Shown: positions 6,668-41,550, counted from the first letter of the stretch. The stretch is DNA of 64,000 bases from an uncultured Gemmatimonadota bacterium (GCA_964571855.1 CAZNDO010000018.1:3886-67885), one strand, 5' to 3'. A program made the numbers and translations. Notes: generated from the sequence alone by a model not told the origin.

Positions 6668-6670
6668 GCC

Positions 6671-27797: not shown

Positions 27798-30700
27798 CTA
27801 CGGCCCCGCTTCCGCATCCGGCAGCAGCGGCCTTGCCGCATCCGCCGCCGCCCCGATGCCCTCGGCCGCCCCGCGCCGCAGCCGCACGTCCTCGTCGGTG
27901 ACCCACGCGATGTCCAGCAGCCCGCCGCGCCGCTGCCCGGTGCGGAGGTAGTTCGCCTCGTCCAGGCTCCGGCTCCACCCGTCCAGCCACTGCTCCAGCT
28001 CGCGGCGCAGCGCCTCGTCGCCCTCGAAGTGGACGATCAGGTCGATGTCGCTGTCCGCCTCCGCCGTTCCGCTCTTCGTGTTCCCGGCCAGGTACACCTG
28101 CCGCACGGGCCAGCGGTCCCGGTCGATCTCCGCCGCCAGGCGCTGCGCCATGTACTCGCGCCAGGACGAGGCGTGGTGCGAATCCGCCGCGCCGTGCCCG
28201 TTCCCGCCGCGCACGCCGGGCGCCGCCACGAAGACGGCCACCGCCTTGTCCAGCTCCCCGTTCATGAGCACGCTGAGCGTCTTCCCGCCGAGCGTGGCCG
28301 GCACGTCGATCACCTTCACCACGTGCTCCAGGTCCGCGAACTCCGGCAGCAGCTCCGTGAGCACGCTGCGCGAGCCCGTGAGGAACCGCTCGTCCAGGAC
28401 GTTGCCCGGCTCGTCCGGGTACAGCGGCAGGTACCGGATCCCCGCTTCCACCAGATCCTGGAAGAAGTGCGTGCCGAACGACAGGTCCGGCATGTACCCC
28501 TCGCGCCGCCGCGCGATCTCGGCCAGCAGCGCCGTGTTGTTGATGTCCGAGTACGTGACGGACACGCCCAGCCGCACGTCGCCGCGGCTGCCCCACCGCC
28601 CGGGGCCGAGCAGGATGAACTGCCGCTTCGGCAGCATGGCGTTCAGCCGCCCCACGGCCCGCCCCACGCGCAGGAACGCCTCGTGGTCCGGCAGCCCCGC
28701 GTACTCCTCCGGGTCCACGTACACCACGTGCGTCACGTTCGTGGCCGAGCCGTTGGACACGTGCCGGTTCGCGGTGAACAGCGTCTCCTCCCGGCGCAGC
28801 GTGCGCGGGATGGGCGCCGGCTGCGGCGAGAGCGAGTAGCTCTGCGGCCGGCATTGCAACAGGTACAGGTGCTCCCCGTCGGACGCGAACTCGATGTCCA
28901 CCGGACCGCCGAGCTTCTTCTCCAGCAATTGCAACAGGCCGCGGATCTGCGCCACGAACGGCGTCTCGGCCACGAGCCCGTCGAACGTGACGATCCACGT
29001 GCCCGTCTCGAAGTTCGATCCCAGCCCCAGGGGCCGCACGAGCCGCCCGTCCTCGAACCGGGACACGAGCCGGCGGATCTCCGGGTACTCCCGCCCGCAC
29101 GTGCGCAGCATCGCCTCGAAGTCCGCGGTCTCGAAGGTCCCGGTCTCCAGGTCGATCGCGTCCACCTTGCTCGGCGCGTACCGGACGATCTCCTCCGGCG
29201 TGATGTTCGCGCGGATGCCGGGCTGCCCCGGCGCCAGCAGCACGGGATAGTCGTCCCCCAGCCGGTCCACGGCCCGCGTGCCCAGCCCCGGGACCAGCCG
29301 GATCAGCCCGTCGGAGCGGCGGATGCGCGGCGACCACCGGAAGTCGTTGTTGCTGAAGGCCACGCCGGCGAACGCGGGCAGGAAGTACCGCCCCACCTGC
29401 TTGCCCACGACCTCCTGGATCATGATGCCCATCTCCTCGTGCACGTCGAGGAGGTCGCGCTCCGCGCGGTACTGGATGGGATCGGGGCTGAAGATGGACG
29501 CGTACACCTCGGCGATGGCGTCCTGCAGCGCCTCCAGCCGCACGCGCTTGGACCCCCGGTTCGCCAGGAACAGGCTCTTGTACTTCCCGGAGAACGCGGC
29601 CTCGGTGCCGTCCTCCAGCAGGCTGGAGCTGCGCACGATCAGCGGCCGCTGCCCCAGGTCGTCCAGCGCGAGCGACAGCCCGCGGATCACGTCCGGCGGG
29701 AAGTGCGAGTTCTTGAAGAGCTGGATGACGTGCGGGTAGTCCTGCCGGATCTGGTCGATGTCCTGGTACTTCCGGTCGTACAGGTCCTCGAGGTTGTTGT
29801 AGCGGATGAAGTCCAGCTGCGCGTCCGACGCCACGTACCAGGTCCGCGGCACGCGCACGTCCGCGAAGAGGTCGTCCGTGGCGTGCCGCGCGAGCTGCAT
29901 GGCCACGAACAGCCCGGAGCTCTTGCCTCCGAGCTTCCCGCGGCTGCGCGGCGTGGCGATGATGCGCGGCGCGATGTCGCAGAAGTCCCCCACGCGCACG
30001 GCGTCGCGCGCGGCGGCGATGAACTCGGTGCGCTCGGAGAAGAACCGCCGCAGGAGCGCCACGCGCAGCTGCGTCTGCGAGGAGGGCGACAGCGTGCTCT
30101 CGTCCACCCCGGTCCGCCGGAACCGGTCCAGCGCCTCGGTGATGTCCGCGAGCGAGCTGTCCAGCCGCTCCAGCGCGCCGGCCAGGTCCGCGCTCTTGTC
30201 CTCCTGGATCCACTGCTGGATCCGCTTGAGGATCTCGGCCTCCGAGAGGTGCTCCTCCGCCACGTCGAACGTGCGCTTGACCAGGGAGTCCACCTCCACG
30301 TGCCGCTGCCGGGCGGACGGCCGGTTCTCGGTGGACGACCCGGATGCGCCCGTGGGATCCGGCGCGAACTCCCGCAGCAGCTCCGGCGCGCCGGGCACGC
30401 CGTGCCAGCAGAGGTAGTTGATCATCTTGCGGGTCATGCGGAGCAGCAGCGCCTGGTCCGTGCGCCGCAGGAAGTCCAGGATGACGCGCCAGTCCCGGCC
30501 CGGGCTGCCCGTCACGTCCGCGAGGTGCGCGTCCTCCTTGATGCGCTCCGCGCGCGCGCGGTGCGAGAGGCGCAGCCCGGTGAGCTTCGCGAGCGCGCCG
30601 AGCAGCCGGCGCTCGCCCTCCACGAACGGCCCGTCCGCGTCTCCCGGACGCTCCTCCGTGTAGTACACGGAGATCTCGCCCACGGGATAGCCGTCCACGT

Positions 30701-30959
30701 CCAGCGGCGCGCTGAGCCCCCACGGCCCGGCGCGGAAGCCGGGCGACTCGTAGCTCTTCCCCTCGAGCGCGATGCGGCAGTGGCAGACGTCCGAGTGGCG
30801 CCAGCCGCCGGGAATGGCGGCGGCCAGCGCCAGCAGCATCTCCTCGATGGGACGACGGCGCCGGGACAGGATCTCCTCGGCGCGGTACAGGCAGGCGAGC
30901 TCCTGCTCGCGCTTGCCCAGCTCGTCCCGGAGACGATCCGCATCGGAACGGACGCCCAA
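27798..30959 (-). CDS. PEP-utilising enzyme N-terminal (PPDK_N / PEP synthase ATP-grasp-like) domain protein with a possible GAF-like N-terminus and a C-terminal polymerase-beta-type nucleotidyltransferase domain
   Basis: The PPDK_N-like core is present (GGKSSGLFVAMQL...LIVRSSSLLEDGTEAAFSGKYKS...GIMIQEV). The C-terminal NTase motif is GNTKSGTAEADSDIDLIVHF. The start is tentatively the in-frame TTG after a GGAGGA; the internal ATG (MLLALAAA) is an alternative. Confidence 0.6.
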   Translation of the reverse strand: MGVRSDADRLRDELGKREQELACLYRAEEILSRRRRPIEEMLLALAAAIPGGWRHSDVCHCRIALEGKSYESPGFRAGPWGLSAPLDVDGYPVGEISVYYTEERPGDADGPFVEGERRLLGALAKLTGLRLSHRARAERIKEDAHLADVTGSPGRDWRVILDFLRRTDQALLLRMTRKMINYLCWHGVPGAPELLREFAPDPTGASGSSTENRPSARQRHVEVDSLVKRTFDVAEEHLSEAEILKRIQQWIQEDKSADLAGALERLDSSLADITEALDRFRRTGVDESTLSPSSQTQLRVALLRRFFSERTEFIAAARDAVRVGDFCDIAPRIIATPRSRGKLGGKSSGLFVAMQLARHATDDLFADVRVPRTWYVASDAQLDFIRYNNLEDLYDRKYQDIDQIRQDYPHVIQLFKNSHFPPDVIRGLSLALDDLGQRPLIVRSSSLLEDGTEAAFSGKYKSLFLANRGSKRVRLEALQDAIAEVYASIFSPDPIQYRAERDLLDVHEEMGIMIQEVVGKQVGRYFLPAFAGVAFSNNDFRWSPRIRRSDGLIRLVPGLGTRAVDRLGDDYPVLLAPGQPGIRANITPEEIVRYAPSKVDAIDLETGTFETADFEAMLRTCGREYPEIRRLVSRFEDGRLVRPLGLGSNFETGTWIVTFDGLVAETPFVAQIRGLLQLLEKKLGGPVDIEFASDGEHLYLLQCRPQSYSLSPQPAPIPRTLRREETLFTANRHVSNGSATNVTHVVYVDPEEYAGLPDHEAFLRVGRAVGRLNAMLPKRQFILLGPGRWGSRGDVRLGVSVTYSDINNTALLAEIARRREGYMPDLSFGTHFFQDLVEAGIRYLPLYPDEPGNVLDERFLTGSRSVLTELLPEFADLEHVVKVIDVPATLGGKTLSVLMNGELDKAVAVFVAAPGVRGGNGHGAADSHHASSWREYMAQRLAAEIDRDRWPVRQVYLAGNTKSGTAEADSDIDLIVHFEGDEALRRELEQWLDGWSRSLDEANYLRTGQRRGGLLDIAWVTDEDVRLRRGAAEGIGAAADAARPLLPDAEAGP

Positions 30960-30988
30960 CGGATCCTCCCCCGGCCTCCCGCGGCCGA

Positions 30989-32296
30989 TCAGACCCAGCC
31001 GCGCTCCCGGCACGCCTCGGCCACGCGCGTGATGCCGATGACGTACGCCGCGTCGCGCATGAACAGCTTCTCGCGCTGCGCCAGATCGTACGCGGAGTGG
31101 AACGCCGCCGTCATCTTCGTGTCCAGCTTCGTCAGCACCTCGTCCCGGCCCCAGAAGTAGTTCATGTTGCTCTGGACCTGCTCGAAGTAGCTGCAGGTGA
31201 CCCCGCCGGCATTCGCCAGGAAGTCCGGGATGACCATGATGCCGCGGCCCTTGATGACCTCGTCCGCCTCCAGCGTGGTCGGCCCGTTCGCGCCCTCCGC
31301 GATCAGCTTCACGGTGGGCTTGATGGCGTTCACGTTGTCGGCGTGGATCTGGTTCTCGTACGCGGCCGGGATGAGGATGTCCACCTCCTGCTCCAGCCAC
31401 GCATCCGCCGGCAGCAGCTCGTAGCCCGCGTCCCGGGCCTTCTGCTTGTCGATGCCGCCGAACCGGTCCGTGATGGACACGAGCTGGTCCATGTCGATGC
31501 CGTCGCGCTTGCGGAACGTGTAGGCGCGCTTGTCGCCCTGGTCCCAGCACGCCACGGCCACGACCTTGCCGCCCAGCTCCTGGTACAGCCGGATGGCGTA
31601 CTGCGCCACGTTGCCGAAGCCCTGCACGCTGGCCACGGTGCCCGCCGCCTTCTTGCCCATCGCGGCCAGGGCCTCGCGCACGGTGTAGATCACGCCGTAG
31701 CCCGTGGCCTCCACGCGCCCGAGCGACCCGCCCAGCGCCACCGGCTTGCCGGTGATGAAGCCGGGCGCGTGGGTGCCGGTGATGGCCTCGTATTCGTCCA
31801 GCATCCAGATCATGTGCCGGGCGGACGTCATCACGTCCGGCGCCGGGACGTCGGACTCGGGGCCCACGTTCCGCACGATCTGGCGCACCCACTTCCGGCA
31901 GATCTGCTCCTGCTCCCGGTCGCTCAGCTCGTGCGGGTCGCAGATCACGCCGCCCTTGGCGCCGCCGAGGGGGATGTCCGCGAGCGCGCACTTCCAGGTC
32001 ATCCACATCGAGAGGGCCCGGACCGTGTCCAGGGTCTCCTGGGGGTGGAAGCGGATGCCGCCCTTGCACGGCCCGCGCGCGTCGTTGTGCTGGACGCGGA
32101 ACCCCTTGAAGACGCGGCGGCTGCCGTCGTCCATCTTGATCGGCATGAGGAACGAGTACTCGCGCAGCGGCTCCCGCAGGAGCGCGCGCGTGGCGTCGTC
32201 CAGCCCGATCAGGTTGGCGACGCGGTCGAACTGACCCTGGGCCACGTGGAAGGCGTTGAACGGCTTCACCGGCCCGGCGGTGGTGGTGGCGGTCAT
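30989..32296 (-). CDS. gdhA: Glutamate dehydrogenase (NAD(P)+-dependent, GdhA-type)
   Basis: The Glu/Leu/Phe/Val dehydrogenase signature is present (KGGIRFHPQETLDTVRALSMWMTWKCALADIPLGGAKGG) with a Rossmann fold (GFGNVAQYA), at 435 aa. Confidence 0.95.
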   Translation of the reverse strand: MTATTTAGPVKPFNAFHVAQGQFDRVANLIGLDDATRALLREPLREYSFLMPIKMDDGSRRVFKGFRVQHNDARGPCKGGIRFHPQETLDTVRALSMWMTWKCALADIPLGGAKGGVICDPHELSDREQEQICRKWVRQIVRNVGPESDVPAPDVMTSARHMIWMLDEYEAITGTHAPGFITGKPVALGGSLGRVEATGYGVIYTVREALAAMGKKAAGTVASVQGFGNVAQYAIRLYQELGGKVVAVACWDQGDKRAYTFRKRDGIDMDQLVSITDRFGGIDKQKARDAGYELLPADAWLEQEVDILIPAAYENQIHADNVNAIKPTVKLIAEGANGPTTLEADEVIKGRGIMVIPDFLANAGGVTCSYFEQVQSNMNYFWGRDEVLTKLDTKMTAAFHSAYDLAQREKLFMRDAAYVIGITRVAEACRERGWV

Positions 32297-32443: not shown

Positions 32444-33985
32444 CTAGAACCGCCACCCCGCCGACGCGTGGATCTGCGTGGTCTTCTCCGCCGCCCCCCG
32501 GCTCCGCTCCACGGACGCCAGCACCAGCCAGGACCGCCCGACCGCGACGTCGGTGTCCAGGGACACCCAGGTCAGGCGCGTGTCGGCCCCCGTGGCCGCT
32601 GCGTGCTCCCGCCGCTCGCCGAGCGACGCTCCCACGTGCGCCCGGTTCGTCACGTTCATCCCCACGGTCCCCGACAGCAGCCAGCCGTCCGTGCGATCGG
32701 AGGTGTACCGCGTTGTCCGCGTGCTGCCCGTCAGGCTGCGGAAGCGCGCGGTGCCGGCGCGACCGCGCAGCGTGTACGCGTTCGTGCCGCCGGAGGAACC
32801 GCCGCCTGCGCGGCGGAAGTCCGCCGCCACGGACGCGCGTCGCGCCGGGCGGTACTCCAGGCCGCTCCAGTAGCCGTTGCGGTAGGCGTCGTCGAAGTCC
32901 GTCTCCGGGGTCACGAGGTTGCGGTACAGCCGCACGTTGCGCCGCGTGTCCGCCCCGCCGTCCACGGACCACTTGTCCGCGAAGCGCCAGCGGGCGTTCA
33001 CGAGCGCGCTCGTCGCCGTGACCGCGTCCTCCCCCGCCTTCCGCTTCCACCCGCGGGCCAGGTCCACTTCCTGCACGGCGAACGCCTCCAGCTTCCCGCC
33101 CGACATCCGGCCCTGCAGCGCGAAGTACTCGCGGTCGATCGTGGACCCCGCGTACGAGCCCACGGCCGCCAGCGTGAGCCGCCACAGGCCGGCCCGTCCG
33201 CCGCTGCCGCCGCGCTCGATCCACACGCCGTGCTCGCGGATGTCCGTGGACGTCCCGAAGGAGCGCGGGTCCGGCTGGTACCCGAAGAACCCGCCGGTCC
33301 CCCAGCGCTCGCCGCGCCACTCGGCCATGACGCCGTCGAACACGCCGACCGAACTGAGCGACGTGGACACCTGCCGCCCGAGGGCCGCGTGCGCGCCGCC
33401 GGTGGGGCGGCCGTACTCCGCGAGCAGCCGGTACACGCGCGTGCGCCCGGTGTCCTCGTCCGGCCGGTAGGTGCGGCGCGCGCGCGCGTCCACGGACACG
33501 CGCCACTCCCCCGCCACGCGTCCGTCCGCGCGCACGTCCACGCCCGGCTCGGAGTACCCGCGATCCAGGGACGACCCGTCCACGAGCCCCAGGTACCGCA
33601 CGTCGATGCGGCCGCGGAGCGGTCGGTCCCGCCGCGACGTCCGCGGCTTCGCCTCGGGCTTCGGCGCCTCGTCCACCACGGGCTCGCCCGCGCGCACGGG
33701 GCGGAAGGTGACGGCATCGCCCACGCGGATCTCCGCGTCCGGCTCCACGCGCCGGCAGGACGCGCGTTTGGACGACAGCGCGGTCACCTCGAGCCACGTC
33801 ACGAGCAGTCCCTCGCGGCGCACCTCGACCACCTCGCCCTTCGCCAGACCGGCCTCCGTGCCGGCGTCCACGTACACCGTGGTGGTCGTGACATAGCTGA
33901 CGGCGGCGCGAACGGTCTCCGCCGCGCGGGACGGGACCGCCGTGGCGAGCAGCACGGCGAGGGCGAGAGCGACGGCGCGCGGCAT
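32444..33985 (-). CDS. Outer-membrane beta-barrel protein (513 aa) translationally coupled to the upstream multihaem cytochromes; a putative porin component of a cytochrome conduit
   Basis: The signal peptide is MPRAVALALAVLLATAVPSRAAE. There are abundant amphipathic beta-strands rich in R, Y, W and G. The C-terminus is ...SAGWRF with a terminal Phe, the OMP beta-signal. The start ATG overlaps the upstream stop (ATGA). Confidence 0.7.
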   Translation of the reverse strand: MPRAVALALAVLLATAVPSRAAETVRAAVSYVTTTTVYVDAGTEAGLAKGEVVEVRREGLLVTWLEVTALSSKRASCRRVEPDAEIRVGDAVTFRPVRAGEPVVDEAPKPEAKPRTSRRDRPLRGRIDVRYLGLVDGSSLDRGYSEPGVDVRADGRVAGEWRVSVDARARRTYRPDEDTGRTRVYRLLAEYGRPTGGAHAALGRQVSTSLSSVGVFDGVMAEWRGERWGTGGFFGYQPDPRSFGTSTDIREHGVWIERGGSGGRAGLWRLTLAAVGSYAGSTIDREYFALQGRMSGGKLEAFAVQEVDLARGWKRKAGEDAVTATSALVNARWRFADKWSVDGGADTRRNVRLYRNLVTPETDFDDAYRNGYWSGLEYRPARRASVAADFRRAGGGSSGGTNAYTLRGRAGTARFRSLTGSTRTTRYTSDRTDGWLLSGTVGMNVTNRAHVGASLGERREHAAATGADTRLTWVSLDTDVAVGRSWLVLASVERSRGAAEKTTQIHASAGWRF

Positions 33986-35271
33986 CAGTGCCTCCCGTCC
34001 GGATGGCAGCGGTAGCAGGCCGCGCTGTTGTACGCGTACCCGGGTTCGCCGCGGTGCTTGTTGTCCACCTCGCTGCGATTCGAGTGCTCGTGGCACAGGA
34101 TGCACTCGAACACGGCGTAGTTCGCGGGCGCCACGTGGCAGTCCGCGCAAGCGGACCACTTCCCGCGATGCGTGCCGCTGTTGATCGGGAAGTAGCGGCC
34201 GTCGTGGTCGAACGTGGCGCCGTACCAGCCGGACGTGCCGTGGCAGTCGGCGCAGGACGTGGGGAACCCCGTGCCGGCGTGCGGCGGGTTCGTCGTGGCG
34301 TCGTACTCGCCGCGATGGCAGCCCACGCACTCGGGGGAGAGCGGTCCGATGGGTCCCGTGCCGTGGCAGGCCGCGCACTCGGCGCCGGCGTGCCGCCCCG
34401 TGAGCGCGAACCCGGTGACCGCATGGTCGAACGACGCGCCGTCCCAGCTCGCCGTCCCGTGGCAGCGTGCGCAGTCCGTGGGAAAGCCCACGGAGGCATG
34501 CGCCGGCGCCGTCGTGGCGTCGTAGTCCGCGCGGTGGCAGCTCACGCACTCCGCGGACACGCGCGCCGGCGGACCCTCGCCGTGGCACGACGCGCACTGC
34601 ACGCCGATGTGCGCACCGGTGAGCGGGAACGCGGTGGCGGAGTGGTCGAACGTGCCGCCCGCGAAGGACGACGTGGAGTGGCACCGCGCACAGTCCGTGG
34701 AGTACCCGCCCGCCACGTGGTCCGGGTTCTTCGCCGCCTGGTAATCCGCCAGGTGGCAGCCCTCGCACGTCTCCGCCGTCCCCGCGAAGCGCATGGCGCT
34801 CCCCGCCTGCGGCCGGTGGCAGGCCGCGCAGTCCGTGGTCAGGTGCGCGCCGGTCAGCGGGAACCGGCCGAGGCGATGCTGCCGCACGGCCTCCGCGCGA
34901 TCGATGAAGTCCCGCGTGGTGTGGCAGCGCGCGCAATCGATCCCCATCTCGCCCCGGTGCACGTCCTGGTGGCAGTCCGCGCAGCGGCTCCCGGACGTCT
35001 CCGCGAACTCCAGCGACGTGTGGCACAGGAGGCACGGCACGTCCTTGTGCGAGCCGTCCAGCGGAAAGCCGAACCGCGAGTGGTCGAACTCCGCGGTCGG
35101 CTTCGCCGGCGTCCACGACTCAGCCCGGTGGCACAGCGCGCAGTCCTGCTTGAAGGAACCGTGCGGGTTCGGCGTGGCCACCTGCGGCGTGACGGCCGCG
35201 GACGGCTCCGCGCCGCGGGCCGCCACGGGCAGGATCGCCATGACGAGAAGCACGGGCAGATGACGGAGCAT
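33985..35271 (-). CDS. Multihaem c-type cytochrome (16 CxxCH in 428 aa), secreted
   Basis: The signal peptide is MLRHLPVLLVMAILPVAARGA. Sixteen CxxCH motifs were counted. It is a paralog of the upstream 25-haem gene, and about 200 aa of the N-terminus are nearly identical. The start overlaps the upstream stop. Confidence 0.85.
   Translation of the reverse strand: MLRHLPVLLVMAILPVAARGAEPSAAVTPQVATPNPHGSFKQDCALCHRAESWTPAKPTAEFDHSRFGFPLDGSHKDVPCLLCHTSLEFAETSGSRCADCHQDVHRGEMGIDCARCHTTRDFIDRAEAVRQHRLGRFPLTGAHLTTDCAACHRPQAGSAMRFAGTAETCEGCHLADYQAAKNPDHVAGGYSTDCARCHSTSSFAGGTFDHSATAFPLTGAHIGVQCASCHGEGPPARVSAECVSCHRADYDATTAPAHASVGFPTDCARCHGTASWDGASFDHAVTGFALTGRHAGAECAACHGTGPIGPLSPECVGCHRGEYDATTNPPHAGTGFPTSCADCHGTSGWYGATFDHDGRYFPINSGTHRGKWSACADCHVAPANYAVFECILCHEHSNRSEVDNKHRGEPGYAYNSAACYRCHPDGRH
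34600..35190 (-). repeat. About 590-bp segment roughly 90% identical to 36535-37125. It is the shared N-terminal tetra/octahaem module of the 16-haem and 25-haem paralogous cytochrome genes.
   Basis: The two DNA stretches align by eye nearly base for base (for example cttcgccggcgtccacgactc[a/g]gcccggtggca[c/a]agcgcgcagtcctgcttgaaggaaccgtgcgggttcggcgtggccacctgcgg). Confidence 0.8.
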
Positions 35272-37274
35272 CACGACCTCCCGTCCGGGTGGCAGCGGTA
35301 GCACGCCGCGCTGTTGTAGGAGTACCCGGACTCCCCCTGGTGGTCCCGATCCACCTTCGCACGGTCGGAGTGCTGGTGACACAGGATGCACTCGAAGACC
35401 GAGTAGTTCGTGGGCGACACGTGGCAGTCCGCGCACGTGGACCACTCGCCGCGGTGCCGGCCGCTGTAGATCGGGAAGTACAGACCGTCGTGATCGAACG
35501 TGGCGCCGTCCCAGCCGGTCGTGCCGTGGCAGGCCGCGCAGTCCGTGGGGAACCCGGCGCCCGCGTGCGGCGGGCTCGTGGTGGCGTCGTACTCCGGGCG
35601 GTGACAATCCACGCACTCCGGCGACAGTGATCCGATCGGGCCCGTGCCGTGGCACGCGGCGCACTCGGCGGCGGCGTGCCGGCCGGTCAACGGGAAACCG
35701 GTGGAGGCGTGATCGAACGACGCGCCGTCCCAGCTCGCCGTCCCGTGGCAGGTGACGCAGTCCGTGGGGAATCCCACCGACGCGTGGCTCGGGGACGTCG
35801 TGCCGTCGTAGTCGGCGCGGTGGCACCCCACGCACTCCAGCGGCGGCGGGCCGGAGCCGCCGTGGCATTGCGCGCACGTCGCGATCAGGTGCGCGCCCGT
35901 CAGCGGGAATCCGGTGGTGGAGTGGTTGAACGTGGCGCCCGGCCACCCGGAGGTCCCGTGGCACGAGGCGCAATCCGTGGAGAAGCCCACCGCCGCATGG
36001 TTCGGATCCGTGCTCGCGTCGTACTCGCCGCGATGGCAGTCCACGCACTCCGGCGAGATCGACCCGATCGGCCCCGTGCCGTGGCAGGCCGCGCACTCCG
36101 GCCCCAGGTGGCGGCCGGTGAGAGGGAAGCCGGTGGACGCGTGATCGAACGACGCCCCGTCCCAGCTCGCCGTCCCGTGGCACGTCACGCAGTCGGTGGG
36201 AAAACCCACGGACGCGTGGCTCGGGGCGGTGGTGCCGTCGTAGTCCGCGCGGTGGCAGCCCACGCACTCGGACGGCGGCGCGCTGCCCGTCGCGCCGCCA
36301 TGGCAGTCCGCGCACGACGTCACGACGTGCGCGCCGGTCAGCGGGAAGCCCGTCCCGGCGTGGTCGAACGTGGCCGTTCCCCATGCGACGGTGGAGTGGC
36401 AGGACGCGCAGTCCGTGGGGAAGCCGACCGCGGCATGCGGCGGGTCGAGCGTGGCGTCGTAGTCCGCGCGGTGGCAGCTCGCGCACTCGGCGGACACCGG
36501 TCCCGGCGGGCCCTCGCCGTGGCACGCCGCGCACTGCACGCTCGTGTGCGCCCCGGTCAGCGGGAACGCAGTGGCGGAGTGATCGAATGTTCCGCCCGCG
36601 AACGACGACGTGGAGTGGCAGGCCGCACAGTCCGTGGAGAAGCCGCCGGCCACGTGGTCCGGGGACTTCGCCGCCTGGTAGTCCGCCATGTGGCAGCCTT
36701 CGCAGGTCTCCGACGTCCCCGCGAACCGCATGGCGCTCCCGGCCTGCGGCCGGTGGCACGCGGCGCAGTCCGTGGTCAGGTGCGCGCCGGTGAGGGGGAA
36801 GCGTCCCAGGCGGTGCTTGCGCACGGCCTCCGCGCGGTCGATGAAGTCCCGCGTGTCGTGGCAGCGAGCGCAGTCCATGCCCATCTCGCCGCGGTGCACG
36901 TCCTGGTGGCAGTCCGCGCACCGGCTCCCCGACGTCTCGGCGAACTCCAGCGACGTATGGCACAGGAGGCACGGAACGTCCTTGTGCGAACCGTCCAGCG
37001 GGAAGCCGGTCTTCGAGTGATCGAAGTCCGTGGGGCTCTTCGCCGGCGTCCACGACTCGGCCCGGTGGCAAAGCGCGCAGTCCTGCTTGAAGGAACCGTG
37101 CGGGTTCGGCGTGGCCACCTGCGGCTTCGCGGGTGCGGACCCGGACGCCGCGGCGCCCTCCCCGGCAGCGGACGAAGCCGCCGGCATCGCGGCGAGCGCG
37201 AGCGCCCCGGCTTGGACGGACAGGCGGAAGAGCAGGCGGACCGCGGGCGGGCGGCGGATCATGGCGAACCTCAT
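35271..37274 (-). CDS. Multihaem c-type cytochrome (25 CxxCH in 667 aa), secreted, built from repeated ~50-aa dihaem modules
   Basis: The signal peptide is MRFAMIRRPPAVRLLFRLSVQAGALALAA. Twenty-five CxxCH motifs were counted by hand. An internal near-identical ~144-aa tandem duplication is present. The start ATG overlaps the upstream stop (ATGA). Confidence 0.85.
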   Translation of the reverse strand: MRFAMIRRPPAVRLLFRLSVQAGALALAAMPAASSAAGEGAAASGSAPAKPQVATPNPHGSFKQDCALCHRAESWTPAKSPTDFDHSKTGFPLDGSHKDVPCLLCHTSLEFAETSGSRCADCHQDVHRGEMGMDCARCHDTRDFIDRAEAVRKHRLGRFPLTGAHLTTDCAACHRPQAGSAMRFAGTSETCEGCHMADYQAAKSPDHVAGGFSTDCAACHSTSSFAGGTFDHSATAFPLTGAHTSVQCAACHGEGPPGPVSAECASCHRADYDATLDPPHAAVGFPTDCASCHSTVAWGTATFDHAGTGFPLTGAHVVTSCADCHGGATGSAPPSECVGCHRADYDGTTAPSHASVGFPTDCVTCHGTASWDGASFDHASTGFPLTGRHLGPECAACHGTGPIGSISPECVDCHRGEYDASTDPNHAAVGFSTDCASCHGTSGWPGATFNHSTTGFPLTGAHLIATCAQCHGGSGPPPLECVGCHRADYDGTTSPSHASVGFPTDCVTCHGTASWDGASFDHASTGFPLTGRHAAAECAACHGTGPIGSLSPECVDCHRPEYDATTSPPHAGAGFPTDCAACHGTTGWDGATFDHDGLYFPIYSGRHRGEWSTCADCHVSPTNYSVFECILCHQHSDRAKVDRDHQGESGYSYNSAACYRCHPDGRS
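35477..36269 (-). repeat. Intragenic tandem duplication (2 x ~432 bp) inside the 25-haem cytochrome gene; each copy encodes a ~144-aa, 6-CxxCH module
   Basis: Protein residues 336-479 and 480-~600 are near-identical (ECVGCHRADYDGTT[A/S]PSHASVGFPTDCVTCHGTASWDGASFDHASTGFPLTGRH...). The corresponding DNA is visibly near-identical. Confidence 0.8.
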
Positions 37275-39031
37275 CCGGGGGATCCGGTGGACTGCGGGGT
37301 CCCGGCCACGTGGCAGGCCTCGCACGCGGTGGGCGCTCCCACCCACACCGCGCCGCGCTTCCCGTCCGGCAGGGTCCCCTCGGCGTGGCAGGCCGCACAC
37401 GCCACCTTCGCGTGGGCGCCGGCCAGCGGGAACTTCGTCTTCTCGTGATCGAAGCGGACGGCCGGCCGGAACGTGTCCGCGCCGTGGCAGACGCTGCACT
37501 CGTCCCCGCCCTTGCGCTTCGCGAACTGGCCGCCGTGCGGGTCCTCGTGGCAGTCCCGGCAGGCACGCGCCTTCTCCTGGAACGACAGATCCGGCCACGC
37601 CTTCGCGGTCCCGAGCAGCGTGGACTCCGGGTGCTTCGTCTCCAGGCCCTGGTGGCACAGGAAGCACGGCACGGCCGCGTGCGCGCCCTCCAGCGGGAAC
37701 TCGTACGCCGCGTGCGCCGCCGGGTCCACGCGGGAGGGCGCGAACGCCGCCGGATCGTGGCAGGCAAGGCACTTGTCGTCGGTGGCCCCGAGCGCCTCGC
37801 GATGCGGGTCCGCGTGGCAGTCCACGCACTGCATGGTCTGGAACCGCAGCAGCACGCCGGCGGTCCCGATGCGCTTCGCGTCCGGCAGGGGCGGCAGGTG
37901 CGCGCGCTGCGGTCCGTGGCACGCCTCGCACGCCGCCTTCTCGTGCGCGCCCTGCAGCGGGAAGCGCAGCGCCGCGTGGTCCGCCACCGTGAACTTCGCG
38001 GGGCGGAACGTGGTCACGTCGTGGCAGCTCTCGCAGCGCCCGCCGTCGGCGCGACGCGCGAGCTGCCCGCCGTGCGCGTCCGCGTGGCAGTCCGCGCACT
38101 TCGCGAACGCGGGCCGGAACCGGAAGGGCACCGCCGGGTCCTTCGAGGCGTGGCACTCCCGGCACGCGACCGCGCGGTGCTTCCCTTCCAGCGCGTACTT
38201 CGCCTTCGCGTGCCGCGTCACGTCGAACGTGGACGGCACGAAGCCCTCCACGCGGTGGCACGATTCGCAGTCCACGGCCGCGCCGGCGAGCGTGGCCTCG
38301 CCGCGGTGCGGATCCGCGTGGCAGTCCACGCACTTCGCGAATGCCGGCAGCACGTCGTAGCCGTCCTTGTGGCACTTCGCGCACTCCAGCGCGCGGTGCT
38401 TCCCGCGCAGCGGGTAGCGCGTCTTCTCGTGGTCGAACGCGCCCTGCACCACCTGCTTCCAGTCCGCGGTGGTGTGGCACTCCGTGCAGTTCGCGCCGAA
38501 GCGGTCCTTGTGCGGATCGGCGTGGCAGGAGAGGCACTGCGTCTCCAGGCCCAGCCGGGAGTCGTCCGCCACCCGGCCCTTGCGCTTCGCGAGGGCCGCG
38601 GACTTGCGCAACTCCGGGCGGTGGCACTTCGCGCACTCCAGGGACGCGTGCTTCCCGTCCAGCGCCCACCCGGTCTTCGCATGGTCGAAGGCGTCGTCGC
38701 CCGCCCACTCCACGAGCGGGAAGTCCACGCCGCCGTGCTCCACGTGGCACTCGGCGCAGGCGCCGGCCGCATCGCGCGCGTGGAAGCCGCGCCCGGCCTC
38801 GCGCAGCGCGGCGATCTCGCCGTGGCAGGAGAGGCACTGCGCGTCCACGCCCTTCTCCTTGATGCCGTGGCAGGCCAGGCAGTTCTTCACGCCCTCCAGG
38901 TCCGCGTGCGCGCGCGACAGCGGCCCCGGGGAGATCTGGCCCCGGGTCGGAGCGGCGGGCAGGAGGAAGGACACGGCCAACGTCATGACGATCGTCCGGA
39001 GCGGGCCGCCGCGCCGTCTACGCGGGAGCAC
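37271..39031 (-). CDS. Multihaem c-type cytochrome (20 CxxCH in ~586 aa), secreted
   Basis: Twenty CxxCH motifs are present (CLACH, CLSCH, CAECH, ...). A hydrophobic N-terminal signal (MTLAVSFLLPAAP) is present. Start is either the GTG at 39031 or the ATG at 38986. The stop overlaps the downstream start. Confidence 0.8.
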   Translation of the reverse strand: MLPRRRRGGPLRTIVMTLAVSFLLPAAPTRGQISPGPLSRAHADLEGVKNCLACHGIKEKGVDAQCLSCHGEIAALREAGRGFHARDAAGACAECHVEHGGVDFPLVEWAGDDAFDHAKTGWALDGKHASLECAKCHRPELRKSAALAKRKGRVADDSRLGLETQCLSCHADPHKDRFGANCTECHTTADWKQVVQGAFDHEKTRYPLRGKHRALECAKCHKDGYDVLPAFAKCVDCHADPHRGEATLAGAAVDCESCHRVEGFVPSTFDVTRHAKAKYALEGKHRAVACRECHASKDPAVPFRFRPAFAKCADCHADAHGGQLARRADGGRCESCHDVTTFRPAKFTVADHAALRFPLQGAHEKAACEACHGPQRAHLPPLPDAKRIGTAGVLLRFQTMQCVDCHADPHREALGATDDKCLACHDPAAFAPSRVDPAAHAAYEFPLEGAHAAVPCFLCHQGLETKHPESTLLGTAKAWPDLSFQEKARACRDCHEDPHGGQFAKRKGGDECSVCHGADTFRPAVRFDHEKTKFPLAGAHAKVACAACHAEGTLPDGKRGAVWVGAPTACEACHVAGTPQSTGSPG

Positions 39032-40451
39032 CGGCTTTCGCCTCCTCGAGCGGAATGGCCTTCGTGACCATGCGGATGCCCGCCTTCTCCAGGAACGCGG
39101 CCGGCGGCTCGCCGCCGATGCGCACGATCACGTCGTCGTTGGGGAGGGTGAGGACCTTGCCGCCGGCCTCGATCTCCACGGCGTCCGCGCGGATGGCCTT
39201 CACCGCGCTTTCGCGCAGGATCCGCACCTTCCCGTTGCGCTCGGCCTCCGCCAGCTTCTGCCGGTTGCGCTCCTTCGCGCGGTCGAAGTCCGCCTTGCGG
39301 TGGCTGAGCACGACCTCGGTGCCCTCCTGGTTCGCGAGGCCCAGCGCGGACTCCAGCGCGCTGTCCCCGCCGCCGACCACGAGCACCTTCCGGCCCTTGA
39401 ATTCCTCCATCTCCACGATGTCGTAGAAGACCTTCTCGGTCTCCTCCCCCGGCACGCCGAGGCGGCGCGGCGTGCCGCGCCGGCCGAGCGCCAGGATCAC
39501 GCGGCGCGCGCGCACCTCGAACCCCTGGCCGCGCACGGCGATGGACGCCCCTTCGCGCGCCACCTCCTCCACGCGCCGGTTCGACAGCACCGTGAGGCCG
39601 CTCTGCTCCACCATCGCCTCCCACACGGCGAGGAGCGTCTCCTTCGAGGCGTCCGCCACCCAAAGGTCCCCGTACAGCGGCACCTTGATCGGCTCCGCGA
39701 GCAGCAGCTTGTGGCGCGGGTACTTGCGGATCGTGTCGGCCAGGCTGCCCTGATCCAGGATCACGAAGTCCAGTCCCGCCTTGCGGGCGGTGAGCGCGGC
39801 GCTCAGCCCGGCCGGGCCGGAGCCCACGATCGCGAGGTCGTGCACGCTGCCGCACGCGCCGGTCCCGCACGCCTGCAGCTCGCGCGCCGCGTTCTCCGCG
39901 GCCACGCGGCCCTCGTTGATGGCGTTCTTGATGAGCCCGCGCCCGCCGAGCTCGCCCACGATGTACACGCCCGGCACGTTCGACTGGAAGTCCGCCTTCA
40001 GATCCGGCACGGTCACGCGGTGCACGGCCGCGCCCGTGGCGATCACGATGCCGCCCACCGGGCACGCCTCCGCGCACTTCCCGTGTCCCTTGCAGCGATC
40101 CTTCTCCACGATGGCCAGCTTGCCCTCGAGGCGGATGGCGCCGGGCTCGGGGCACACGGGGACGCAACAGCCGCAGCCCACGCACACGTCCGCGCGGACA
40201 ATGGCGTGCGGGGCCGCATCGTCGGCCGGCGCGGCGGCCGGGTCCGGGGCGGCCTCCACCTCGGCGGCGGCGATCTCGAACACCTGCATCGGGACGTCGC
40301 AACCGGGGCAGCGCGAGGCGCCCGCGGGGACCTCGCCGCCGCACCGGGGGCACGCGGTGCGCGGCCCGCCGCCCTTGCGGCGGATCTGCCACGCCATGAG
40401 CGCCGCGGTGAGGACGGCGAAGGCGACCGTCGCGAGGACGCCGGAGTTCAT
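39018..40451 (-). CDS. Membrane-anchored iron-sulfur flavoprotein: N-terminal TM helix, zinc-ribbon, 2x[4Fe-4S] ferredoxin domain and a thioredoxin-reductase-like FAD/NAD(P)-binding oxidoreductase domain
   Basis: The TM segment is VLATVAFAVLTAALMAWQI and the zinc-ribbon is CPRCGG..CPGC. Ferredoxin motifs CVGCGCCVPVCP and CKGHGKCAEACP are present. There are two Rossmann GxGxxG motifs (AIVGSGPAGL, VLVVGGGDSAL). The start ATG overlaps the upstream stop. Confidence 0.8.
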   Translation of the reverse strand: MNSGVLATVAFAVLTAALMAWQIRRKGGGPRTACPRCGGEVPAGASRCPGCDVPMQVFEIAAAEVEAAPDPAAAPADDAAPHAIVRADVCVGCGCCVPVCPEPGAIRLEGKLAIVEKDRCKGHGKCAEACPVGGIVIATGAAVHRVTVPDLKADFQSNVPGVYIVGELGGRGLIKNAINEGRVAAENAARELQACGTGACGSVHDLAIVGSGPAGLSAALTARKAGLDFVILDQGSLADTIRKYPRHKLLLAEPIKVPLYGDLWVADASKETLLAVWEAMVEQSGLTVLSNRRVEEVAREGASIAVRGQGFEVRARRVILALGRRGTPRRLGVPGEETEKVFYDIVEMEEFKGRKVLVVGGGDSALESALGLANQEGTEVVLSHRKADFDRAKERNRQKLAEAERNGKVRILRESAVKAIRADAVEIEAGGKVLTLPNDDVIVRIGGEPPAAFLEKAGIRMVTKAIPLEEAKAGAPA

Positions 40452-41404
40452 CAGCGCAGCCACGTGTCGCTGAACAGGATCGCCACCGCCACGTGCACCG
40501 CCACCGCGAGGAACGCCATGATCGCGAAGGGCATGTGGAACGCGTGCCACAACCGGAACACGCGGTTCGTGGCATCCAGGATGCGGATTTGCTGGCCGAG
40601 CGCCATCTCGCGGCGCGCGAGACGGGTGACCTTCCGCACCTCGCGCGCGTCGAACCTCCGCTTCGACGTGCGCATGCCCGCCTCGAGGCGATGCACGGCA
40701 CGGCGACGATCGAGGTCGTCGCGCAGCATGCGCCCGAGGGCACGCACCACGCCGCCCCGGGGCGCCACGTCCACCGGCTTCAGCAGCTCGAGGATCTCGC
40801 GCGGGTCCAGGCCGGTGGACTCCACCAGCGTGCCGAGGATCTCGCGGCGCTCCGCGGAGACCTGCTCGCGCGTGAGCTCCAGCCCGGCCCGCCCGCGCGG
40901 GATGCGCACGTACAGGTACCGGCCCACCACGCCCGAGCACGCCACCACGAGCATCGAGAAGTACCCGAGCCCGATGAGCCCCTCGAACCGGAACCCCGCG
41001 TGCACCGCGCCCGCCAGCGGCATCAGCACGCCGGCCACGATGTGCGCGTCCAGCCAGCGCGGGATGGGGCCGAGGAACGTGGCGGACGAGAGGCGCTTCC
41101 GCACCGGGTAGAGCCACAGGAAGGCGAACAGCGCGAAGGCCAGGAGGCCGGCGGACTGCCCCACGTACCCCGTGGGACCCAGCCACTCGTGCCAGGGATT
41201 GCGGAGCCGCTCCCCGAACGGCAGGGCGTAGTACGAAGCCCCCGCCGCCGCCACGAGCAGCAACGGGAACACGCCGACGAGCACCGCGCGCGGCACGAAG
41301 GGCGGCGCGACGGAGCGGACGGCCGGGGACGCCGGCTCGGTTGCCTTGGCCGGCTTCCCCGGCGCCGCACTTGCCCGCGGCGCCGCCAGTTCGGTGGTGG
41401 CCAT
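40451..41404 (-). CDS. Integral membrane protein with two conserved His pairs spaced 13-14 residues apart in TM helices; a putative di-haem b-type cytochrome / ferric-reductase-like electron-transfer subunit
   Basis: There are about 6 TM helices. The His pairs are AHIVAGVLMPLAGAVHAGF and HAFHMPFAIMAFLAVAVHV. It is the first gene of the operon. The start is taken at the internal ATG (MATTEL...); the upstream ATG at 41467 is the alternative. Confidence 0.5.
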   Translation of the reverse strand: MATTELAAPRASAAPGKPAKATEPASPAVRSVAPPFVPRAVLVGVFPLLLVAAAGASYYALPFGERLRNPWHEWLGPTGYVGQSAGLLAFALFAFLWLYPVRKRLSSATFLGPIPRWLDAHIVAGVLMPLAGAVHAGFRFEGLIGLGYFSMLVVACSGVVGRYLYVRIPRGRAGLELTREQVSAERREILGTLVESTGLDPREILELLKPVDVAPRGGVVRALGRMLRDDLDRRRAVHRLEAGMRTSKRRFDAREVRKVTRLARREMALGQQIRILDATNRVFRLWHAFHMPFAIMAFLAVAVHVAVAILFSDTWLR

Positions 41405-41550
41405 GCCCGTCGTCCCGTCCTCCCGTCGATGCAGGAACGTCCTCCCGCGTGTGCATTCTGCGACCACGCGGTGCGCAAAGAGGGCCCGGTCCCCCCCTTC
41501 GCGCCGGGCGGGATGTGGTGCCGCGACTCCGGAATTCCCCGAAAAGGGGG

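What the first reader, a model, noticed from the sequence alone, without database searches (positions are those of the whole stretch)
33985..37274. Ongoing modular expansion of the cytochromes: paralogous genes plus a near-perfect intragenic tandem duplication
The 16-haem and 25-haem genes share a ~590-bp, ~90%-identical N-terminal block. The 25-haem gene also contains two near-identical tandem ~432-bp units, each encoding six CxxCH motifs in the pattern CxxCHxxxYDxTxxPxHAxVGFPTDCxxCHGTxxWxGAxFDHxxTGFPLTGxH. Such high nucleotide identity implies a recent duplication or gene conversion, and it would make this locus prone to recombination and assembly collapse. Haem count could therefore vary between strains.
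Basis: seen in the sequence. Interest (0 to 1): 0.6.

Follow-up and report, generated by a model that had tools for sequence, protein, structure and literature searches.

The report
Module-built multihaem cytochrome gene pair
Two neighbouring genes encode long electron-carrying proteins built from repeated three-haem modules; the repeats are real but old rather than near-perfect, and a sister genome lacks exactly one module in each gene, so the length of these "haem wires" changes in whole-module steps.

Summary
The coordinates are two minus-strand genes: cytA (33985-35271, 428 aa, 16 CxxCH) and cytB (35271-37274, 667 aa, 25 CxxCH). Both have the same build: a five-haem N-cap, n copies of a 73-aa (219-bp) three-haem c7-like module, and a C-cap. 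cytA has 3 modules and cytB has 6.

- **Confirmed:** the ~590-bp N-terminal block is 89.3% identical, and there is a 432-bp periodicity inside cytB.
- **Not confirmed:** the 432-bp units are only 74-79% identical. Their best 219 bp is 85% identical (93% at protein level), and the longest exact match is 26 nt. Synonymous divergence (dS) is ~0.6-0.9, against ~0.1-0.3 for orthologues, so the duplication is old and held by purifying selection.
- **No gene conversion:** four-taxon sites support orthology over concerted evolution by 61 to 3.
- **Prediction that holds:** a sister Gemmatimonadota MAG (92-96% nt identity) has 13 and 22 haems. Each gene lacks exactly one module, with in-register junctions inside CxxCH-coding motifs. 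The evidence points to loss in the sister genome, not gain here.
- **Assembly:** k=31 assemblies break exactly at the 39- and 54-nt exact repeats.

Family members carry 10-94 haems, mostly following 7+3n. The genes sit in a conserved five-gene cassette ending in a 22-strand β-barrel, probably a trans-envelope electron conduit.

The parts
33985..35271 (-). cytA: 428-aa, 16-haem cytochrome c. Signal peptide, five-haem N-cap, modules A1-A3 and C-cap. Its start codon overlaps the cytB stop by 1 nt and a GGGAGG Shine-Dalgarno sequence lies upstream.
   Evidence: Pfam Cytochrome_C7 64.1 bits against a cut-off of 24.8
35271..37274 (-). cytB: 667-aa, 25-haem cytochrome c (663 aa from the MIRRPP start). 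N-cap, modules B1-B6 and C-cap. Its ATG overlaps the cytC stop (ATGA).
   Evidence: Pfam Cytochrome_C7 94.2 bits; identical protein P0010 on an NCBI contig of 74.5 kb
34450..35230 (-). N-terminal paralogous block of cytA (N-cap, A1 and the start of A2). Its partner in cytB is 36387-37167, at offset 1937.
   Evidence: 86% over 781 bp; best 590 bp 89.3%; longest exact run 54 nt at 35135-35188; dS 0.355, dN/dS 0.15
36387..37167 (-). N-terminal paralogous block of cytB, the partner of 34450-35230.
33985..34554 (-). C-terminal paralogous block of cytA (A2, A3 and C-cap). Its partner in cytB is 35271-35840, at offset 1286.
   Evidence: 81.8% over 570 bp; 39-nt exact run at 34427-34465
35958..36395 (-). 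First two-module super-unit of cytB (aa 294-439: second part of B2, B3, first part of B4). Six CxxCH.
   Evidence: the repeat finder family D1 and TRF period 219; 77-79% codon-aligned identity to the second unit
35526..35957 (-). Second two-module super-unit of cytB (aa 440-583: second part of B4, B5, first part of B6). 432 bp, six CxxCH.
   Evidence: dS 0.58-0.89
36048..36266 (-). Module B3 (73 aa, three CxxCH plus three free His).
   Evidence: 93% aa and 85% nt identity to B5, third-position identity 66%, dS 0.67
35616..35834 (-). Module B5, the closest copy of B3. Module A2 (34330-34548) is the third member of this module type.
34309..34527 (-). 219-bp segment of cytA (aa ~249-321, essentially module A2) that is absent from the sister MAG. 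The junction lies in TGCCAYCGCG, which codes CHR.
35739..35951 (-). 213-bp segment of cytB (aa 442-512, second part of B4 plus first part of B5) that is absent from the sister MAG. The junction lies in TGCCACGGGAC, which codes CHGT.
37271..39031 (-). cytC: 586-aa, 20-haem cytochrome c of a different build. It has the same length and haem count in the sister MAG.
32444..33985 (-). 513-aa outer-membrane protein: signal peptide, small N-terminal β domain and a ~22-strand β-barrel ending in ...GWRF. Its start overlaps the cytA stop.
   Evidence: AF2 model with pLDDT 86.5; the nearest solved folds are PapC/FimD/AlgE/porin barrels; 66 homologues, no Pfam or NCBIfam family
39018..40451 (-). 477-aa Fe-S flavoprotein: transmembrane helix, zinc ribbon, 2x[4Fe-4S] and an FAD/NAD(P) domain. 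Part of the cassette.
   Evidence: Pyr_redox_3 1.7e-40, Fer4_21 and Fer4_10
40451..41467 (-). Membrane protein of 317-338 aa with two H-x13-H helices, which suggests a di-haem b protein. First gene of the cassette.
   Evidence: read from the sequence; only weak DUF4405 and Ferric_reduct hits; conserved next to the flavoprotein in L001, L003, L006, L009 and L011

Best explanation
cytA and cytB are paralogous haem-wire cytochromes c. Each is one polypeptide built from a five-haem N-cap, n tandem copies of a 73-aa c7-like module and a C-cap, which gives 7+3n haems. Each module carries three CxxCH motifs and three conserved free histidines, so all three haems should be bis-His ligated. cytA has n=3 and cytB has n=6.

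The repeats are old. The two-module duplication inside cytB and the cytA/cytB gene duplication both predate the split from the sister species, and protein-level similarity has been kept by purifying selection (dN/dS ~0.13-0.3).

Module number still changes. It does so by in-frame, in-register recombination or slippage between neighbouring modules at the short identical stretches that encode the CxxCH motifs (inferred mechanism). Each event adds or removes exactly one module. Because a module carries its own haems and ligands, the chain stays intact and only its length changes, by roughly 3 nm per module by analogy with GSU1996. Since the species split, the visible events are two such losses in the sister lineage (16 to 13 and 25 to 22 haems).

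Functionally (inferred, not shown), the genes belong to a translationally coupled, phylogenetically conserved cassette: a membrane protein with di-haem-b-like motifs, an Fe-S flavoprotein, the 20-haem cytC, the variable cytochrome(s) and a 22-strand outer-membrane barrel. This most likely carries electrons between cytoplasmic NAD(P)H or ferredoxin and the cell exterior.
For: - Architecture; Pfam Cytochrome_C7 above its cut-off; every CxxCH and three free His per module are invariant or nearly so in 63 family members.
- Age: B3 against B5 is 93% identical in protein but 66% at third positions, dS 0.67. The super-units have dS 0.58-0.89, the A/B N block 0.355, and orthologues 0.11-0.30.
- No concerted evolution: 43:2 and 18:1 informative sites, and pairwise distances satisfy the four-point condition.
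- Module steps: the sister MAG (92-96% nt identity, fully syntenic) lacks 73 aa in cytA and 71 aa in cytB, with junctions inside CHR- and CHGT-coding motifs.
- Polarity: the extra segments are at most 85% identical to any other segment here. wA2 groups with outgroup module o2 and shares its TGFALTG signature. The closer outgroup L015 has the same module type directly before the C-cap.
- Family rule: 88 of the 120 best homologues, and 19 of 24 full-architecture hits, have haem counts equal to 1 mod 3, over a range of 10-94. In 27 of 120, at least one pair of modules is 95% or more identical in protein.
- Cassette: the same genes occur in L001, L003, L006, L009 and L011, with 13, 19, 22, 25 or 43 haems in the variable cytochrome. 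Start and stop codons overlap at every junction.
- Remote homology to polymer cytochromes: HmcA 1Z1N at 1.8e-8 and GSU1996 3OV0 at 2.1e-7 across nearly the whole chain.
Against: - Only one close relative is available, and it is a short-read MAG, so the module differences rest on two assemblies that I could not check against reads.
- NG86 dS is unreliable at GC3 of 93% and for 73-codon segments. The ordering of events is therefore approximate.
- The outgroup L009 also has 25 haems but with its own near-identical modules, so ancestral module numbers are uncertain.
- No experimental evidence exists for expression, haem attachment, localisation or direction of electron flow. None of the three cytochromes has a lipobox, unlike the surface cytochromes of Mtr and Pcc systems.
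- The AF2 model of cytA (pLDDT 77) found no Foldseek match in the PDB, and I could not inspect its geometry.
Confidence: 0.7

Rival explanations
1. A recent, near-perfect intragenic tandem duplication, together with recent duplication or gene conversion of the N-terminal block, shows that the cytochromes are expanding now.
For: Off-diagonals at offsets 432 and 1937 exist, with 100-nt peaks of 91 and 94%. B3 and B5 are 93% identical in protein. Other family members do contain very similar modules: 27 of 120 have a module pair at least 95% identical in protein, and L009 modules o4 and o5 are 92% identical in nucleotides.
Against: The 432-bp units are 74-79% identical, with dS 0.58-0.89 and a longest exact run of 26 nt. 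Both copies are already present, with their diagnostic residues, in the sister genome. Four-taxon sites reject conversion since the split, 61 to 3. The post-split changes look like losses.
Confidence: 0.08
2. The difference in module number between the two genomes is an assembly artefact. Either repeats collapsed in the sister MAG or they were falsely expanded here.
For: Both genomes are metagenome assemblies. The repeats demonstrably break k=31 graph assemblies at 34456 and 37096. A third relative's contig (L015) also ends inside the cytochrome.
Against: The recombinant junctions rest on in-register identities of only about 11-15 nt between modules that are ~70% identical. That is too short for a de Bruijn collapse at usual k values. 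Both deletions are exactly in frame and keep every CxxCH and His spacing. The flanks of the window are reproduced at 99.97-100% identity by four Logan contigs from three sequencing runs. The sequence of the sister genes is otherwise collinear.
Confidence: 0.12
3. The window lineage gained one module in each gene after the split (a true recent expansion), and the sister keeps the ancestral 13 and 22 haems.
For: Two states cannot be polarised with certainty. 13-haem versions exist in more distant cassettes (L004, L006).
Against: A post-split gain should be about 93% or more identical to its donor. The extra segments are at most 82-85% identical to anything in the locus. wA2 shares the TGFALTG signature with outgroup module o2. 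L015 has the type-2 module before the C-cap. The sister's B4 is a clean hybrid of window B4 and B5.
Confidence: 0.08
4. A functional rival that does not exclude the evolutionary account. cytA and cytB are periplasmic electron stores or relays (capacitors), as proposed for Geobacter GSU1996, and do not thread an outer-membrane conduit.
For: They are remotely homologous to GSU1996. They have Sec-type signal peptides and no lipobox. One family member (P0058, 37 haems) stands alone without the cassette. The role of GSU1996 as a periplasmic nanowire is described in PMC10138318.
Against: In six lineages the variable cytochrome is encoded immediately upstream of, and overlapping, the barrel gene. The barrel family appears to be dedicated: 66 homologues with no other annotation.
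Confidence: 0.3

Closest known systems
Geobacter sulfurreducens c7-type domain polymers (GSU1996 and GSU0592 with 12 haems, GSU2210 with 27 haems; PDB 3OV0, 3OUQ, 3OUE, 1RWJ)
   Same: A single polypeptide made of tandem three-haem domains of ~70-80 aa related to cytochrome c7, forming a linear haem wire. Pfam Cytochrome_C7 matches. The family profile aligns with nearly the whole 3OV0 chain at E 2.1e-7. Background on these proteins is in PMC10138318.
   Different: Similarity is only remote: a single-sequence search finds nothing. Here every module has three free His and no conserved Met, whereas GSU1996 has one His-Met haem per domain. This family also has fixed N- and C-caps, a far wider range of module numbers (1 to ~29) and a genetic link to an outer-membrane barrel.
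Porin-cytochrome conduits (Shewanella MtrCAB; Geobacter Pcc OmaB-OmbB-OmcB; PioAB)
   Same: Multihaem cytochrome genes lie directly next to a large outer-membrane β-barrel gene in one operon. The inferred job is to move electrons across the outer membrane.
   Different: No family membership. DmsE/MtrA TIGR03508 scores 18-20 bits against a cut-off of 192, and the barrel has no Pfam or NCBIfam hit. There is no lipoprotein surface cytochrome. The cytochromes have 13-43 or more haems instead of 8-12. The predicted input module is an Fe-S flavoprotein plus a membrane protein with H-x13-H helices, not a quinol dehydrogenase such as CymA, ImcH or CbcL.
High-molecular-weight c3-type cytochromes (HmcA 16-haem, nine-haem cytochrome c; PDB 1Z1N, 1H29, 1OFW)
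   Same: Polymers of c3/c7-like domains. These are the best profile hits in the PDB, at 1.8e-8 to 2e-6. cytA shares the haem count of 16.
   Different: NF045713 HmcA scores 23 bits against a cut-off of 400. The domain order and spacing differ, and there is no Hmc membrane complex in the neighbourhood.
'Grafting and pruning' model of multihaem cytochrome evolution (Mol Biol Evol 2022, PMC9250108), and the reported gain, loss and duplication of Geobacter cytochromes (PMC12977616, PMC2825233)
   Same: Multihaem cytochromes evolve by adding and removing redox modules and by gene duplication.
   Different: Here the step is seen between two genomes at 92-96% nucleotide identity, with the junctions resolved to the CxxCH-coding motif. 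It acts on one uniform tandem module rather than on dissimilar domains.

Membership tests
c7-type triheme-domain polymer cytochromes (GSU1996 type) | Tandem ~70-80-aa domains, each with three CxxCH motifs | tested here: met
   Spacing of 25, 32 and 16 residues repeats 3 times in cytA and 6 times in cytB; TRF period 219
c7-type triheme-domain polymer cytochromes (GSU1996 type) | Match to the c7/c3 domain models above the curated cut-off | tested here: met
   PF14522 scores 64.1 and 94.2 bits against 24.8; PF14537 and PF02085 are also above their cut-offs
c7-type triheme-domain polymer cytochromes (GSU1996 type) | One His-Met ligated haem per domain | tested here: not met
   Each module has three conserved free His (for example H258, H283 and H294 in A2) and no conserved Met. 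This is judged from sequence only.
c7-type triheme-domain polymer cytochromes (GSU1996 type) | Detectable sequence homology to GSU1996 | tested here: inconclusive
Porin-cytochrome conduit (Mtr/Pcc/Pio) | Outer-membrane β-barrel gene adjacent to multihaem cytochrome genes | tested here: met
   ~22-strand barrel model with pLDDT 86.5. Its start overlaps the cytA stop. The adjacency is conserved in 6 lineages.
Porin-cytochrome conduit (Mtr/Pcc/Pio) | Homology to the MtrA/DmsE decahaem family or to MtrB/PioB/OmbB porins | tested here: not met
   TIGR03508 scores 17.7 and 20.1 bits for cytA and cytB and 49.6 for cytC, against a cut-off of 192. The barrel has no hit in Pfam or NCBIfam, and MtrB is not among the top 50 fold matches.
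Porin-cytochrome conduit (Mtr/Pcc/Pio) | Surface-exposed lipoprotein cytochrome (MtrC or OmcB type) | tested here: not met
   No Cys precedes the first CxxCH in the cytA, cytB or cytC leader sequences
Porin-cytochrome conduit (Mtr/Pcc/Pio) | Physical cytochrome-in-barrel complex and extracellular electron transfer activity | not testable with these tools
   Needs biochemistry or genetics
   432-bp units are 74-79% identical and B3/B5 85%, with a longest exact run of 26 nt. The N block is 89% identical with a longest run of 54 nt.
   dS is 0.355 (N block) and 0.58-0.89 (units), against 0.11-0.30 for orthologues
   Informative sites split 43 orthology to 2 concerted (N block) and 18 to 1 (C block). 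The four-point condition is satisfied.

The most novel reading that the evidence does not exclude
The cassette is an undescribed class of trans-envelope electron conduit found in Gemmatimonadota, Acidobacteriota and other phyla. Its parts would be a membrane protein with di-haem-b-like motifs, an Fe-S flavoprotein, a 20-haem cytochrome, a 7+3n-haem wire and a dedicated 22-strand barrel. In this reading, a NOX-like cytoplasmic NAD(P)H or ferredoxin input feeds a haem wire that threads the barrel. The reach of the wire (about 10 to about 94 haems) would be tuned in evolution by in-register one-module gains and losses, so that module number is an adaptive, fast-evolving trait comparable to length variation in surface adhesins.
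Probability: 0.3. Interest if true: 0.7.

Novelty: new variant of a known kind. Interest (0 to 1): 0.45.

Why it matters
Multihaem cytochromes drive extracellular electron transfer, but how their haem number evolves has mostly been inferred from deep comparisons. This locus shows the elementary step directly. Between genomes at 92-96% nucleotide identity, one three-haem module is present or absent in each of two paralogues, with junctions in the haem-motif codons and the reading frame and ligand pattern preserved.

The locus also defines a simple rule (7+3n haems) for a very large, unannotated family, and links that family to a conserved cassette with a dedicated outer-membrane barrel in phyla where electron-transfer machinery is poorly known.

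There is a practical point as well. Haem counts in this family from short-read MAGs need care, because k-mer assemblies break at the repeats, and orthologue calling by length or haem number will split true orthologues.

Tried and rejected
- A single-sequence PDB search with cytB found nothing. Only the family profile reached HmcA and GSU1996.
- Genome and metagenome scans seeded with the barrel protein found only one close relative and a few distant ones. I therefore could not survey module number within the species.
- The search with the 77-aa C-cap was meant to give an unbiased census of family lengths. It mostly returned other giant cytochromes in which that cap is itself the tandem unit, so it is not a clean census.
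- I looked for gene conversion three ways. The 2:2 site patterns, the four-point distances and the exact runs (39 and 54 nt, not longer than expected at 82-89% identity over hundreds of positions) give no support.
- YN00 dS failed with a 'math domain error' in 11 of 12 comparisons. The one value returned was dS 2.11 for the N-terminal block, against 0.36 by NG86. I use NG86 throughout, so dS is probably underestimated at this GC3.
- Literature searches for intragenic tandem duplication or triheme repeats in multihaem cytochromes, and for Gemmatimonadota porin-cytochrome systems, found no description of this family or cassette. The 2026 peat preprint describes other Acidobacteriota clusters with 8-13-haem cytochromes, and I could not tell whether any is the same.
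- The long ORFs on the other strand and in other frames across the region are by-products of 73% GC, and I did not pursue them.

Full report
**What is at the coordinates**

The interval 33985-37274 is exactly two genes on the minus strand. cytA (33985-35271) encodes 428 aa with 16 CxxCH motifs. cytB (35271-37274) encodes 667 aa with 25 CxxCH motifs. Neither has CxxxCH or CxxxxCH variants. Both begin with Sec-type signal peptides and have no lipobox.

All genes from 41467 down to 32444 overlap or abut at their start and stop codons (TGATG, ATGA or a 14-nt overlap), so they form one operon. In gene order it contains:
- a membrane protein (40451-41467);
- an Fe-S flavoprotein (39018-40451; Pyr_redox_3 1.7e-40 plus 4Fe-4S domains);
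- the 20-haem cytC (37271-39031);
- cytB, then cytA;
- a 513-aa protein (32444-33985).

**Anatomy of the repeats**

The spacing of haem motifs is 36, 17, 16, 35, 21, then n times (25, 32, 16), then 25, 35, 15, 29. This gives a five-haem N-cap, n tandem modules of 73 aa (219 bp) and a C-cap, for a total of 7+3n haems. cytA has n=3 and cytB has n=6.

Each module has three CxxCH and three further histidines. These are invariant or nearly so across 63 family members, which predicts three bis-His haems per module. Tandem Repeats Finder reports period 219. Pfam Cytochrome_C7, Cytochrom_c3_2 and Cytochrom_CIII all match above their cut-offs.

**Checking the observation**

A self dot-plot of 33900-37400 gives off-diagonals with these best 100-nt windows:

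| Offset | Best 100-nt identity |
|---|---|
| 1937 | 94% |
| 432 | 91% |
| 1286 | 89% |
| 1718 | 84% |

Thirty codon shuffles never exceeded 59, with a mean of 55, so the repeats are far beyond chance.

The best 590-bp window (34591-35180 against 36528-37117) is 89.3% identical, and the block extends to about 780 bp at 86%. The two genes are therefore collinear end to end, and cytB carries three extra modules in the middle.

The second statement holds only in outline.
- There is a two-module (432-438 bp, six-haem) super-repeat: 35958-36395 and 35526-35957.
- The copies are 74% identical ungapped and 77-79% codon-aligned.
- Their best part, B3 against B5, is 85% identical in nucleotides, although 93% in protein.
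- The longest exact match is 26 nt.

'Near-perfect' is therefore wrong.

**Age of the duplications**

B3 and B5 differ at 21 synonymous codons out of 68 conserved residues. Third-position identity is 66%, in genes with GC3 of 93%, where unrelated modules already score 53-60%. Nei-Gojobori dS values are:

| Comparison | dS |
|---|---|
| B3 / B5 | 0.67 |
| Halves of the super-unit | 0.58-0.89 |
| A / B N block | 0.355 |
| A / B C block | 0.47 |
| Orthologues, this genome against its nearest relative | 0.11-0.30 |

dN/dS is 0.13-0.3 throughout. The similarity is thus old duplication preserved by purifying selection, not recent duplication.

**The sister genome**

The protein search found one close relative of cytB, P0026 (592 aa). 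Its contig comes from an uncultured Gemmatimonadota MAG (GCA_964471155.1). The contig is fully syntenic and 92-96% identical in nucleotides gene by gene.

In that genome cytC again has 20 haems, but cytB has 22 and cytA has 13. The differences are clean. There are 73 aa (essentially module A2) missing from cytA, and 71 aa (the second part of B4 plus the first part of B5) missing from cytB. Both are in frame and in register.

The DNA switches from the left copy to the right copy inside TGCCAYCGCG (coding CHR) in cytA and TGCCACGGGAC (coding CHGT) in cytB.

**Direction of change**

If the window lineage had gained these modules after the split, they should be about 93% or more identical to their source. 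They are at most 82-85% identical to anything in the locus.

Three further observations agree:
- In a tree of modules, wA2 groups with module 2 of an outgroup gene and shares its unusual TGFALTG signature.
- A closer outgroup fragment (L015, barrel 65% identical) has the same module type directly in front of the C-cap, as in window cytA and cytB.
- The sister's fourth cytB module is a simple hybrid of window B4 and B5.

The parsimonious reading is two one-module losses in the sister lineage, not ongoing expansion here. I could not check either assembly against reads, so an artefact remains a minor rival. It is unlikely, because the in-register identities at the junctions are only about 11-15 nt.

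**Gene conversion**

With the four sequences (window A and B, sister A and B), informative sites support orthology over within-genome similarity 43:2 in the N block and 18:1 in the C block. The pairwise distances satisfy the four-point condition (0.108+0.150 against 0.127+0.132). The slightly higher A/B identity in the window is therefore just slower evolution, not conversion.

The more distant outgroup L009 (GCA_046330135.1) has the same neighbourhood with a single A/B-type gene. The gene duplication is therefore specific to this clade and predates the split of the two sister genomes.

**Assembly behaviour**

Only three exact repeats of 31 nt or more exist in the two genes: 34427-34465, 34513-34543 and 35135-35188, each with a partner copy.

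Four Logan (k=31) contigs from three sequencing runs are 99.97-100% identical to the window. They stop at 34456 and 37096, which is exactly 30 nt (k-1) into the outermost exact repeats. The repeats therefore fragment small-k graph assemblies. There is nothing long enough to collapse at k of 55 or more.

**The family**

cytB has at least 7,856 homologues at E up to 1e-10 among the 8,000 candidates scored. The 120 best share the same caps and module spacing. Of these, 88 have haem counts equal to 1 mod 3, over a range of 22 to 46. In 27 of them some pair of modules is at least 95% identical in protein, so recent module duplications do occur elsewhere in the family. An example is L009, where modules o4 and o5 are 92% identical in nucleotides.

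A search of 1.84 billion representatives with the 77-aa C-cap found full-architecture members from 10 to 94 haems, 19 of 24 obeying the rule. It also showed that the cap is itself the tandem unit of other giant cytochromes, such as P0187 with 75 CxxCH.

**Context and likely function**

The 513-aa protein downstream of cytA has no Pfam or NCBIfam family and 66 homologues, all unannotated. AlphaFold2 with that alignment gives a confident model (pLDDT 86.5): a small N-terminal β domain, a disordered linker and about 22 transmembrane β-strands ending in ...GWRF. The nearest solved folds are usher, AlgE and porin barrels at TM 0.3-0.45.

The five-gene set recurs in Gemmatimonadota, Terriglobia and other Acidobacteriota, and unclassified bacteria. 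It comprises the membrane protein, the flavoprotein, the cytC type, the variable cytochrome and the barrel. In these cassettes the variable cytochrome carries 13, 19, 22, 25 or 43 haems.

The membrane protein has two helices with H-x13-H, the spacing typical of di-haem b proteins of the ferric-reductase type. Its Pfam hits are only weak.

My inference is a trans-envelope electron path: cytoplasmic NAD(P)H or ferredoxin, then the flavoprotein, haem b, cytC, cytB and cytA, and finally the barrel and the outside, or the reverse. None of this is shown experimentally. A periplasmic storage role like that proposed for GSU1996 (PMC10138318) is a live alternative.

**Comparison with what is known**

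The closest known proteins are the Geobacter c7-type domain polymers GSU1996, GSU0592 and GSU2210 (PMC10138318). They share the principle of tandem three-haem domains forming a linear wire. The family profile aligns with almost the whole 3OV0 chain, but only at E 2e-7, and single-sequence search finds nothing. GSU1996 also has one His-Met haem per domain, whereas these modules look all bis-His.

The operon resembles porin-cytochrome conduits in organisation but fails their membership tests. DmsE/MtrA scores 18-50 bits against a cut-off of 192, there is no MtrB-type hit, and there is no lipoprotein cytochrome.

Evolution of multihaem cytochromes by adding and removing modules, and rapid gain, loss and duplication of cytochrome genes, are established ideas (PMC9250108, PMC12977616, PMC2825233). 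What this locus adds:
- the step is resolved at microevolutionary distance;
- the 7+3n rule;
- the cassette, of which I found no description in the searchable literature.

**Verdict**

The repeats and the paralogy are real, and the prediction of variable haem number is borne out. The 'near-perfect', 'recent' and 'ongoing expansion' parts are not. The tandem duplication is old, there is no detectable gene conversion, and the datable changes are module losses in the sister lineage.

I rate it a new variant of a known kind, with moderate interest (0.45).

Noticed in passing
window 39018-41467 (-): The first two genes of the operon look like a split, NOX-like electron input. One is a 317-338-aa membrane protein with two H-x13-H helices and only weak DUF4405 and Ferric_reduct hits. 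The other is a 477-aa protein with a transmembrane helix, a zinc ribbon, 2x[4Fe-4S] and an FAD/NAD(P) domain. Both are conserved next to the cytochromes in L001, L003, L006, L009 and L011.
   Followed up: partly
window 34456 and 37096; loci L007, L008, L013, L014: Four Logan contigs from three sequencing runs are 99.97-100% identical to the window. All end exactly 30 nt (k-1) inside the 39-nt (34427-34465) and 54-nt (37072-37125) exact repeats. This is a direct view of how the paralogous blocks fragment k=31 assemblies.
   Followed up: yes
L009 8049-10004 (GCA_046330135.1): The outgroup has a single A/B-type gene that also has 25 haems. Its modules 3-5 are a lineage-specific near-identical set: o4 and o5 are 92% identical in nucleotides and o3 and o4 85%. 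The same haem count was therefore reached with different modules, either by convergence on length or by concerted evolution.
   Followed up: partly
proteins P0187, P0193, P0310 and others: The 77-aa C-terminal cap of cytA is itself the tandem unit of other giant cytochromes. Examples are P0187 (1885 aa, 75 CxxCH, spacing 28-31-14) and P0310 (2321 aa, 94 CxxCH). There are 789 representative clusters at E up to 1e-3.
   Followed up: partly
window 5204-9249 (+): A second, unrelated multihaem cluster: a lipoprotein-like 487-aa cytochrome with 8 CxxCH (5204-6667, leader ...LLAAGC), a 507-aa protein that may be a β-barrel (6671-8194), and a cytochrome with ~12 CxxCH ending at 9249. It looks like a more classical porin-cytochrome arrangement.
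   Followed up: no
window ~34010-34090 and ~35300-35380 (C-caps of cytA and cytB): Lineage-specific substitutions are clustered. Window cytB has QHSDRAKV where window cytA and both sister genes have EHSNRSEV. Window cytA has DNKHRGEP where the other three have DRDHQGES. These could be short conversion tracts from an unseen donor or local fast evolution; I have no explanation.
   Followed up: no
L012 6001-8793 (P0058): A 37-haem family member in a 5.4-Mb genome stands alone among carbohydrate-metabolism genes, without the barrel, flavoprotein or cytC. Not all members of the family belong to the cassette.
   Followed up: no
window 30989-32296 and 27798-30960 (-), and the same in L001 and L009: The glutamate dehydrogenase and PPDK_N/nucleotidyltransferase-like genes downstream of the barrel are syntenic in the three related genomes. 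This synteny helped to establish orthology of the locus.
   Followed up: partly
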